Assembly (NCBI RefSeq): GCF_055900595.2
Contig: NZ_CM148325.1
DNA length: 64,000 nt
Reading direction: 5' to 3' (one strand)
In this document: piece by piece, positions 43,208 through 43,301 of the stretch
How positions within the stretch are numbered: the first letter of the stretch is position 1
Layout of the letters: the number at the start of each line of letters is the position of its first letter
Notes under the pieces: generated by a model
Told to the model about the DNA's origin: nothing
Databases searched by the model: none
The model's input: only the letters and a program-made list of their open reading frames with translations
Position numbers and translations under genes: made by a program

Positions 43208-43301
43208 CGCATTTTGCCCCTGTAAAATCAGGGGCTTTCTGGTAAGGTTTTCTACTGATACGGGAATGCTTACCAGAAATTAGCCAGGGTTGGAGCGCGA
43301 T

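What the first reader, a model, noticed from the sequence alone, without database searches (positions are those of the whole stretch)
43215..43278. Hairpin plus perfect 10-bp inverted repeat immediately upstream of hsdR
A terminator-like hairpin (gcccctgtaaaatcaggggc followed by T-rich sequence) and then a perfect inverted repeat, ttctggtaag ... cttaccagaa with a 22-bp spacer, end 24 bp before the hsdR ATG. This looks like attenuation or operator control separating methylase/specificity expression from nuclease expression, which is important for safe establishment of Type I systems.
Basis: seen in the sequence. Interest (0 to 1): 0.4.

Follow-up and report, generated by a model that had tools for sequence, protein, structure and literature searches.

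The report
Two conserved hairpins before hsdR
The 94-base gap between the specificity gene (hsdS) and the nuclease gene (hsdR) of this E. coli Type ID restriction system holds a terminator-like hairpin followed directly by a second long hairpin; both are strongly conserved across enteric bacteria, and together they most likely set how much nuclease message is made, which is an ordinary kind of operon punctuation rather than a new mechanism.

Summary
Hairpin 1 (43216-43235) has a 7-bp GC-rich stem and starts 8 nt after the hsdS stop. It is followed by TTTCTGG. Directly abutting it is a perfect inverted repeat, which is 11 bp long, not 10 (43236-43246 / 43269-43279, 22-nt spacer). The repeat extends into a ~17-bp imperfect hairpin. 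The hsdR ATG is at 43302.

The locus is mrr-hsdM-hsdS-hsdR of a Type ID (StySBLI-like) system in the E. coli immigration control region. The module is single-copy and junction-specific. It occurs in 861 of 5,426 complete E. coli genomes and in Klebsiella, Citrobacter, Enterobacter, Pluralibacter, Superficieibacter and Pragia.

Stem bases are invariant at 32 of 36 positions, against 22% of third codon positions (p = 1e-15). Loops vary freely. There is no compensatory covariation, no alternative antiterminator fold, no regulator gene and no second copy of the repeat.

More distant relatives keep a hairpin 0-10 nt after the hsdS stop, with unrelated sequence, but lack hairpin 2.

Best reading: a leaky intrinsic terminator that a ribosome finishing hsdS may hinder, plus a clade-specific sense-strand RNA stem-loop. 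Together they tune read-through into hsdR. A weak overlapping promoter or operator cannot be excluded.

Interest is low to moderate.

The parts
39004..40170 (+). mrr-like Type IV restriction endonuclease gene, first gene of the cluster
   Evidence: Pfam Mrr_cat 1.6e-29; PADLOC mREase_IV; annotated 'restriction endonuclease' in strain KE55
40234..41853 (+). hsdM (Type I methyltransferase)
   Evidence: Pfam N6_Mtase 1e-105 and HsdM_N; PADLOC MTase_I
41810..43207 (+). hsdS (specificity subunit); its ORF overlaps the end of hsdM; stop TAA at 43205-43207
   Evidence: Pfam Methylase_S; PADLOC Specificity_I 3e-124; conserved C-terminal motif LLPKLISGEL
43208..43215 (+). 8-nt gap between the hsdS stop codon and hairpin 1 (9 nt in variants with an extra T, 5 nt in Pragia)
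43216..43235 (+). Hairpin 1: GCCCCTG-TAAAAT-CAGGGGC, terminator-like stem-loop (-13.7 kcal/mol)
   Evidence: pair probabilities 0.93-1.0; stem invariant in 34-36 of 36 variants
43236..43243 (+). Weak T-run TTTCTGGT after hairpin 1 (3 contiguous T, 5 of 8); it is also the start of the 5' arm of hairpin 2
43236..43279 (+). Hairpin 2: perfect 11-bp outer stem, 2x2 internal loop, 5-bp inner stem (43249-43253 / 43262-43266), 8-nt loop; -17.7 kcal/mol as + strand RNA
   Evidence: folds in all 36 variants, -10.6 to -27.5 kcal/mol excluding one variant mis-trimmed by the extraction script
43236..43246 (+). Left arm TTTCTGGTAAG
   Evidence: the only polymorphism is G43242 to T, which gives a tolerated mismatch at this pair in the variants that carry it (this pair is unpaired in 10 of 36 variants, counting also two right-arm changes)
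43269..43279 (+). Right arm CTTACCAGAAA
   Evidence: C43269 to T gives a G-U pair in 8 variants
43220..43248 (+). Candidate weak promoter only: -35-like CTGTAA (43220-43225), 17-bp spacer, extended -10 TGgTAAGGT (43240-43248)
   Evidence: My own PWM scan scores it 7.2-9.0, against a background best of 7.7 +/- 1.9 per 206 nt. It is not significant, but it holds the same position in all clade members. The tool's consensus scan found no promoter in 42700-43700
43292..43295 (+). Shine-Dalgarno GGAG of hsdR
   Evidence: read from the sequence; conserved in the clade
43302..46565 (+). hsdR (Type I restriction subunit, 1087 aa)
   Evidence: Pfam HSDR_N, SWI2_SNF2, T1RH-like_C; PADLOC REase_I; same start as RefSeq in KE55

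Best explanation
The hsdS-hsdR spacer is a compact, selectively maintained two-hairpin module that acts on the sense-strand transcript and sets how much hsdR message is made relative to hsdM-hsdS.

Step 1 (anatomy shown, function inferred): hairpin 1 is the intrinsic terminator of the hsdM-hsdS unit. Its T-run is poor (UUUCUGG), so it should be leaky.

Step 2 (inferred from published experiments on another terminator): hairpin 1 starts only 8 nt after the hsdS stop codon. A ribosome finishing hsdS would cover part of the 5' arm and hinder folding. Read-through into hsdR would then be favoured when hsdS is being translated and disfavoured when it is not.

Step 3 (inferred): no consensus promoter fits in the remaining 66 nt, so hsdR is expressed mainly from read-through RNA.

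Step 4 (structure predicted, role inferred): hairpin 2 can form only in read-through RNA, because its 5' arm is the terminator's U-run. There it would act as the second member of a hairpin cluster. It could be a barrier or processing point that protects the upstream hsdMS RNA, or a structured 5' edge of the hsdR leader. Either way it further tunes the R:M/S ratio.

My estimates: hairpin 1 works as a terminator or 3' stabiliser, about 0.7. Hairpin 2 works as RNA, about 0.45. Ribosome gating, about 0.3.
For: - Terminator-like site called at 43216-43235; no sigma-70 consensus promoter in 42700-43700.
- Both hairpins dominate the ensemble, with pair probabilities 0.8-1.0 in a 231-nt context and z = -4.0.
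- Stems are invariant at 32/36 positions, against 22% of third codon positions; loops are invariant at 36% (per-site pattern).
- Relatives with 61-75% HsdR identity and hsdS upstream carry a stable hairpin 0-10 nt after the hsdS stop with unrelated sequence, many with canonical T-runs (L010, L022, L026, L028, L031, L033, L035). The position is conserved while the sequence turns over.
- Hairpin 2 folds with the same architecture in all 36 variants. It is more stable as + strand RNA than as - strand RNA in 31 of 36 (mean -17.1 against -15.2 kcal/mol).
- One-sided changes keep pairing only on the + strand (G-C to G-U in 8 variants; U-G pairs in the inner stem).
- Variants L056 and L128 convert internal-loop mismatches into pairs.
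- The module is single-copy and junction-specific.
- Literature: a terminator 5 bp after a stop codon fell from about 90% to under 10% efficiency because of the translating ribosome, and 10-15 nt of free RNA are needed for folding (PMC4824070). Two-hairpin clusters are common termination units (PMC8355165). EcoKI also has a terminator between its hsdR and hsdMS units (PMC12707154).
Against: - No compensatory (two-sided) change in any of 24 pairs across 36 variants, and paired cells are not above the shuffle control. The RNAalifold covariation term is -0.05. The structure rests on conservation and thermodynamics only.
- The arms are conserved in sequence, more than a generic stem needs. That fits protein or RNA-polymerase recognition equally well.
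- The T-run is weak, and hairpin 2 has no T-run at all.
- A mismatch at one pair of hairpin 2 persists in several lineages (10 of 36 variants).
- A positionally conserved extended -10-like motif (TGnTAAGGT) overlaps the left arm, and its 'n' is the only variable arm position.
- No transcript-end or transcript-start data were available.
- Relatives with strong terminators probably have a separate hsdR promoter, so the clade might too.
Confidence: 0.45

Rival explanations
1. DNA-level reading. Hairpin 1 terminates hsdMS efficiently, and hsdR has its own weak promoter (Pres) embedded in the module: -35-like CTGTAA in hairpin 1 and extended -10 TGgTAAGGT in the left arm of hairpin 2, with a start near 43254-43256. 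The inverted repeat would then be an operator for a host factor, or a supercoil-sensitive cruciform that modulates this promoter.
For: - The arms are invariant in sequence with no covariation.
- TGnTAAGGT is the top-scoring promoter candidate in the window spacer and in L004 and L008, and holds the same position in all clade members.
- The single polymorphic left-arm base is the 'n' of TGn.
- Relatives with strong terminators and AT-rich spacers probably have a separate hsdR promoter.
- EcoKI uses two promoters (PMC12707154).
Against: - The promoter score is at the background level (7.2-9.0 against 7.7 +/- 1.9), and the tool's consensus scan finds none.
- The hexamer TAAGGT matches only 3 of 6 positions.
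- No regulator gene lies in the cluster.
- No second copy of the repeat exists anywhere searched.
- Half-sites 33 bp apart centre to centre are atypical for a dimer operator (general knowledge).
- G-U and U-G pairs and the +/- strand energy asymmetry favour RNA.
- The spacer keeps self-complementarity although its sequence varies.
Confidence: 0.25
2. Translational control of hsdR. The spacer and the end of hsdS fold so that the hsdR ribosome-binding site is masked until ribosomes translate hsdS (long-range coupling). Alternatively, an RNA-binding protein such as CsrA binds the GGA in hairpin 2 and the GGA in the SD.
For: - In E. coli the MFE and centroid folds pair hsdS 43138-43166 with 43284-43310, covering part of the SD and the AUG.
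- CUCCGG(C) in hsdS is complementary to (G)CCGGAG or UUGGAG at the SD in clade members, including Pragia.
- AC(A/G)GGAA lies in hairpin 2, 29 nt from the SD GGA.
Against: - The pairing partner of the SD differs between species (positions -144 to -169).
- The predicted SD occlusion is no greater than when the hsdS segment is shuffled.
- CUCC arises from the conserved Ile-Ser codons of HsdS.
- The GGA in hairpin 2 sits in the stem, not the loop, and is absent in Pragia (ACUGAAA).
Confidence: 0.1
3. Hairpin 2 has no function of its own. It is a relic (for example a small palindromic insertion or a decayed terminator tail) that is carried along with a recently spread gene cluster.
For: - Hairpin 2 is restricted to one clade (HsdR 80-99% identity).
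- The closest outgroup, L010, has only a degenerate AU-rich counterpart.
- There is no covariation.
Against: - Arm positions are invariant across 9 genera-level genomes in which 78% of third codon positions have changed (p = 1.4e-15).
- The loops of the same element evolve at the neutral rate.
- Of 861 E. coli copies, 741 are identical and none lacks the element.
Confidence: 0.08

Closest known systems
Intrinsic (Rho-independent) terminator placed between co-oriented genes, e.g. the dksA/gluQ-rs terminator of Shigella flexneri (PMC3542578, title and abstract seen)
   Same: A GC-rich stem-loop followed by T residues just after an upstream stop codon. The downstream gene is expected to depend on read-through.
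   Different: The T-run here is short (TTTCTGG), and it doubles as the 5' arm of a second hairpin. No transcript data exist for this locus.
Stop-codon-proximal terminators repressed by the terminating ribosome (tR2 position series; Li et al. 2016, PMC4824070)
   Same: The hairpin begins 8 nt after the stop codon (5-9 nt across variants). That lies between the 5-bp gap shown to repress termination and the 10-15 nt of free RNA said to be needed for folding.
   Different: That work used a synthetic reporter with a strong terminator. Gating at hsdS-hsdR is an inference and was not measured.
Hairpin-cluster termination units (Gupta and Pal 2021, PMC8355165)
   Same: Two adjacent hairpins within 80 nt of a stop codon, less than 15 nt apart.
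   Different: Here the two hairpins abut with zero spacing. The second is unusually long (about 17 bp) and sequence-invariant. The next gene starts 22 nt after it.
EcoKI (Type IA) hsd transcription: two promoters and a terminator between hsdR and hsdMS (review PMC12707154, section 20)
   Same: A terminator separates the nuclease unit from the methylase/specificity unit of a Type I system.
   Different: The gene order is reversed (R-M-S in EcoKI, M-S-R here). The family is different (Type ID). No demonstrable promoter lies between the units here.
C-protein (controller) operators of Type II restriction-modification systems (own knowledge; regulatory mechanisms reviewed in PMC12707154)
   Same: An inverted repeat just upstream of a restriction gene, proposed to delay nuclease expression.
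   Different: There is no C gene or any HTH ORF in the cluster. The half-sites are 33 bp apart centre to centre. The system is Type I, not Type II.

Membership tests
Intrinsic (Rho-independent) terminator | GC-rich stem-loop of 5-14 bp with a short loop | tested here: met
   7 bp with 6 G-C pairs, 6-nt loop, -13.7 kcal/mol
Intrinsic (Rho-independent) terminator | Run of U immediately 3' of the stem | tested here: inconclusive
Relatives have much better runs, e.g. L010 TTTTCTTTTTTTT
Intrinsic (Rho-independent) terminator | Lies at the 3' end of a transcription unit, on the sense strand | tested here: met
   8 nt after the hsdS stop. The reverse strand has no T-run. Position-equivalent hairpins occur in relatives
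Intrinsic (Rho-independent) terminator | Transcript 3' ends map to the U-run | not testable with these tools
   No Term-seq or 3'-RACE data were available
Transcription attenuator (leader, riboswitch or T-box type) | Alternative antiterminator structure mutually exclusive with the terminator | tested here: not met
   Hairpin 1 pair probabilities are 0.93-1.0. Forcing the 3' arm open costs 12.3 kcal/mol and the 5' arm finds no partner
Transcription attenuator (leader, riboswitch or T-box type) | Sensor element (leader peptide, ligand aptamer) matching a known family | tested here: not met
   No Rfam match; the best is 18 bits against a gathering score of 50. No leader ORF in the spacer
C-protein / operator control of R-M systems | Small HTH controller gene adjacent to the restriction gene | tested here: not met
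   The cluster holds only mrr, hsdM, hsdS and hsdR. No ORF of 20 aa or more lies wholly within the spacer
C-protein / operator control of R-M systems | Operator repeated at the controller's own promoter or elsewhere | tested here: not met
   The arm motif with up to 1 mismatch is found elsewhere only at 19654 and 39950, unpaired. There is one site per locus and no copy outside the junction in 5,426 genomes
Dispersed palindromic repeats (REP/BIME, ERIC, MITE) | Many copies per genome in varied contexts | tested here: not met
   886 places in 861 genomes, the same counts for the 271-nt junction query and the 44-nt hairpin 2 query. 71 of 88 metagenome pattern hits are at the same junction; the rest are chance matches without the hairpins
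Conserved structured RNA element (Rfam-type cis-regulatory RNA) | Base pairs supported by compensatory substitutions | tested here: not met
   0 of 24 pairs show two-sided changes in 36 variants, and the measures are not above shuffles. Covariation term -0.05
Type ID restriction-modification system (context of the element) | HsdR closely related to StySBLI/KpnAI; gene order hsdM-hsdS-hsdR next to mrr in the immigration control region | tested here: met
   The junction is 99.3% identical to ST131 strains. EC958 EcoMII HsdR is reported as 92% identical to StySBLI HsdR, with order mrr-hsdM-hsdS-hsdR (PMC4659465). It is only distantly related to Type IC EcoR124I (E = 3e-24 over part of the protein). 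Subunit complementation, the formal criterion for family membership, is not testable here

The most novel reading that the evidence does not exclude
Hairpin 2 is a dedicated, sequence-specific cis-regulatory element of enterobacterial Type ID systems. It would be an RNA stem-loop or DNA operator recognised by a conserved host factor or by RNA polymerase. It would gate HsdR synthesis at the transcriptional or post-transcriptional level, for example by delaying nuclease expression after the genes enter a new host. That would be the first defined gene-expression control of the restriction subunit of a Type I system, whose known establishment controls are mainly post-translational.
Probability: 0.15. 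Interest if true: 0.5.

Novelty: new member of a known kind. Interest (0 to 1): 0.28.

Why it matters
Little is known about how Type I restriction genes are expressed; the 2025 EcoSal review notes 'surprisingly little information' (PMC12707154). For the Type ID family, which is present in about 16% of complete E. coli genomes including ST131, I found no account of how nuclease expression is controlled in the literature I could read. The two founding Type ID papers (KpnAI, StySBLI) were not available.

A 64-nt module whose stems are as conserved as coding first and second codon positions gives a defined, mutable handle for asking whether the nuclease:methylase ratio is set by read-through, by translation-coupled termination, or by a factor that binds the repeat. 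If it is only a leaky terminator plus a stabilising hairpin, it is routine operon punctuation.

Tried and rejected
1. Rfam scan of 42000-44500 at E up to 10: only sub-threshold noise (isrK 18 bits, c4-a1b1 17 bits).

2. Covariation: RNAalifold on 12 sequences and explicit pair counts on 36 distinct variants found no compensatory change. Structure cannot be claimed from covariation.

3. Long-range masking of the hsdR ribosome-binding site by the hsdS 3' coding region. It appears in the E. coli MFE and centroid folds. The register is not conserved in Klebsiella or Pragia, and the SD pairing probability is no higher than with a shuffled hsdS segment. Rejected as unsupported.

4. Classical attenuator: no antiterminator alternative.

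5. Regulon operator or dispersed repeat. Searches of the window, 140 loci, a covariance model over 333 kb, 5,426 E. coli genomes, plasmids (one hit, on an 834-kb record) and metagenomes found no copy outside the hsdS-hsdR junction.

6. Sigma-70 promoter: the tool's scan found none. My own PWM scan gives only a background-level candidate. By eye I saw no sigma-54, sigma-E or sigma-32 motifs and no boxes for LexA, CRP, TyrR, GntR, RcsB or IHF. This was an informal check from memory, not a test.

7. CsrA site: the GGA lies in the stem and is not conserved in Pragia.

8. Small ORF in the spacer (ATGCTTACCAGAAATTAG, 5 codons) is absent in Klebsiella-type variants.

9. Literature: the papers on KpnAI (Lee et al. 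1997) and StySBLI (Titheradge et al. 2001, PMC60208) were not available. Any promoter or terminator mapping they contain could not be checked.

Full report
**What is there.** The window is E. coli chromosome, in the immigration control region. The local gene order is btsT-yjiX-yjiA, brnTA, an mrr-like nuclease (39004-40170), hsdM (40234-41853), hsdS (to 43207) and hsdR (43302-46565). The spacer between hsdS and hsdR is 94 nt. It contains hairpin 1, GCCCCTG-TAAAAT-CAGGGGC (43216-43235), which starts 8 nt after the hsdS stop and is followed by TTTCTGGT. Immediately after it comes a perfect inverted repeat, which is 11 bp rather than 10: TTTCTGGTAAG (43236-43246) and CTTACCAGAAA (43269-43279), 22 nt apart. 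An inner stem (TTTTC/GGGAA) extends the repeat into one long imperfect hairpin. The T-run after hairpin 1 is therefore also the 5' arm of hairpin 2.

**Is it more than chance?** The spacer folds at -41.1 kcal/mol, z = -4.0, with 0 of 200 shuffles as stable. Both hairpins have pair probabilities of 0.8-1.0 in a 231-nt context. A perfect 11-bp inverted repeat is not rare in itself: the window holds six, the other five with the arms 0-8 nt apart. The decisive evidence is comparative.

**Which system.** The junction is 99-100% identical in hundreds of E. coli genomes, including ST131. For ST131 EC958 this cluster (EcoMII, order mrr-hsdM-hsdS-hsdR) has an HsdR reported as 92% identical to StySBLI, the founder of Type ID (PMC4659465). 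It is only distantly related to Type IC EcoR124I.

**Distribution.**
- The 271-nt junction query and the 44-nt hairpin 2 query both give 886 places in 861 of 5,426 complete E. coli genomes. This implies hairpin 2 does not occur away from this junction.
- It is unannotated in RefSeq.
- A scan of one genome per species with the HsdR N-terminus gave 48 loci. Both hairpins are present in E. albertii, Citrobacter, two Klebsiella species, Superficieibacter, Enterobacter, Pluralibacter and Pragia (HsdR 80-99% identity).
- A metagenome scan for the hairpin 1/hairpin 2 boundary (AGGGGCTTTCTGKTAAGG) gave 88 hits. Of these, 71 are at the same hsdS-hsdR junction and 17 are unrelated chance matches without the hairpins.
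- A covariance model of the module found nothing else in the window or in the distant loci, apart from a weak, degenerate homologue in Xenorhabdus koppenhoeferi (L010, E = 0.02).
- The module is therefore single-copy, junction-specific and restricted to one clade.

**Selection.** In nine genus-level genomes, 32 of 36 stem positions are invariant, against 77 of 350 third codon positions of hsdR (Fisher p = 1.4e-15) and 568 of 700 first and second positions. Loop and spacer positions (10 of 28) do not differ from third positions (p = 0.11). The stems are under purifying selection and the loops are not.

No pair shows a two-sided compensatory change across 36 distinct variants, and paired cells are not above the shuffle control (covariation term -0.05). 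The data therefore cannot separate 'structure' from 'sequence recognised by something'.

Weaker hints favour sense-strand RNA:
- One-sided G-C to G-U changes in 8 variants, and U-G pairs in the inner stem.
- Greater stability as + strand RNA than as - strand RNA in 31 of 36 variants.
- Variants in which internal-loop mismatches become pairs (L056, L128).
- Retention of a self-complementary spacer despite sequence change.

One pair (G43242-C43273) is mismatched in 10 variants from several lineages.

**Wider family.** Relatives at 61-75% HsdR identity with hsdS upstream (Xenorhabdus, Proteus, Providencia, Yersinia, Edwardsiella, Aeromonas, Vibrio-group and others) nearly all have a stable hairpin starting 0-10 nt after the hsdS stop. 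Its sequence is unrelated, and many have canonical T-runs. A longer AT-rich spacer (60-350 nt) follows, and there is no hairpin 2. A hairpin that keeps its position while its sequence turns over is the best evidence that hairpin 1 is a functional terminator or 3'-end structure of hsdM-hsdS.

**Mechanism.** There is no antiterminator alternative: opening hairpin 1 costs 12.3 kcal/mol and its 5' arm finds no other partner. There is no Rfam family, no leader or regulator ORF and no consensus promoter.

The 8-nt gap between stop codon and stem (5-9 nt across variants) lies between the 5-bp gap at which a terminating ribosome was shown to suppress an intrinsic terminator (efficiency from about 90% to under 10%) and the 10-15 nt of free RNA said to be needed for folding (PMC4824070). 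Two adjacent hairpins are a common termination unit (PMC8355165).

I therefore favour the following account. Hairpin 1 is a leaky terminator that may be gated by hsdS translation. Its read-through supplies hsdR message. Hairpin 2 forms only in read-through RNA, as a barrier, a processing point or a structure in the hsdR leader. Overall confidence is 0.45. The anatomy, the conservation and the absence of rival features are shown. Termination, ribosome gating and the role of hairpin 2 are inferred.

**Main rival (0.25).** A weak promoter may be embedded in the module: -35-like CTGTAA at 43220 and extended -10 TGgTAAGGT at 43240-43248. It holds the same position in all clade members, and its 'n' is the only variable base of the left arm. 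Its score is at background level. Under this reading the repeat could be an operator or a cruciform.

**Lesser rivals.** Ribosome-binding-site masking or CsrA-type control (0.1) was examined and not supported. A functionless relic (0.08) is contradicted by the conservation statistics.

**Comparison with known systems and novelty.** The module works like an intercistronic intrinsic terminator or hairpin cluster. It parallels the terminator that separates the hsdR and hsdMS units of EcoKI (PMC12707154). It fails the tests for a classical attenuator, a C-protein operator, a dispersed palindromic repeat and a covariation-supported structured RNA.

I found no description of this element in the literature I could search, and the KpnAI and StySBLI papers were not available. 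I file it as a new member of a known kind. Interest is low to moderate (0.28). The most novel reading not excluded is a dedicated cis-regulator of HsdR synthesis in Type ID systems (probability about 0.15).

Noticed in passing
window 46801-46926: (CACAT) x 25.4 pentanucleotide microsatellite in the AT-rich spacer downstream of the hsdR stop. The only other E. coli genome with this region (strain MB52) has 11.4 copies, so the copy number varies between strains. It lies about 460 bp upstream of a half-size S gene, too far to be an obvious promoter-spacer switch.
   Followed up: partly
window 47137-49231: A second, R-less pair follows hsdR: a 193-aa single-TRD specificity protein (47388-47969) and a 419-aa N6 methyltransferase (47972-49231), preceded by an 84-aa ORF with no Pfam match. 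This insert is present in only 1 of 5,426 complete E. coli genomes (MB52). Strain KE55 carries symE and GmrSD genes at this position instead.
   Followed up: partly
window 43138-43166 with 43284-43310: About 22 bp of imperfect complementarity between the conserved LISGEL-coding part of hsdS and the hsdR SD, start codon and first codons. It is present in the E. coli MFE and centroid folds. The register is not conserved in other genera and the effect is not above shuffled controls.
   Followed up: yes
L009 (Pragia fontium) about 2955-3000: Pragia has about 20 extra nt between hairpin 2 and the hsdR SD. They form a third small hairpin (GGGGGCGATTAAATCGTGCCC), while the CCGGAG context of the SD is kept.
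   Followed up: no
L010 (Xenorhabdus koppenhoeferi) 2881-2955: The closest outgroup has a homologous hairpin 1 with a strong T-run. In place of hairpin 2 it has only an AU-rich pairing (UUUUCUU with AAGAAAA) around a 26-nt insert. This may be an ancestral or decayed form.
   Followed up: partly
window 7943-7967, 23183-23209, 26966-26995, 31240-31263: Four other perfect 11-bp inverted repeats with 2-8 nt loops. They are probably ordinary terminators and were not examined.
   Followed up: no
window 47665-47701: A 15-nt inverted repeat, 93% complementary, 7 nt apart (ATCAAATTGCCATTA / TAATAGCAATTTGAT), inside the half-size S gene.
   Followed up: no
window 38231-38852: A brnT/brnA toxin-antitoxin pair lies on the minus strand just upstream of mrr (Pfam BrnA_antitoxin; annotated in KE55). 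This matches the published description of the immigration control region (PMC12707154).
   Followed up: no
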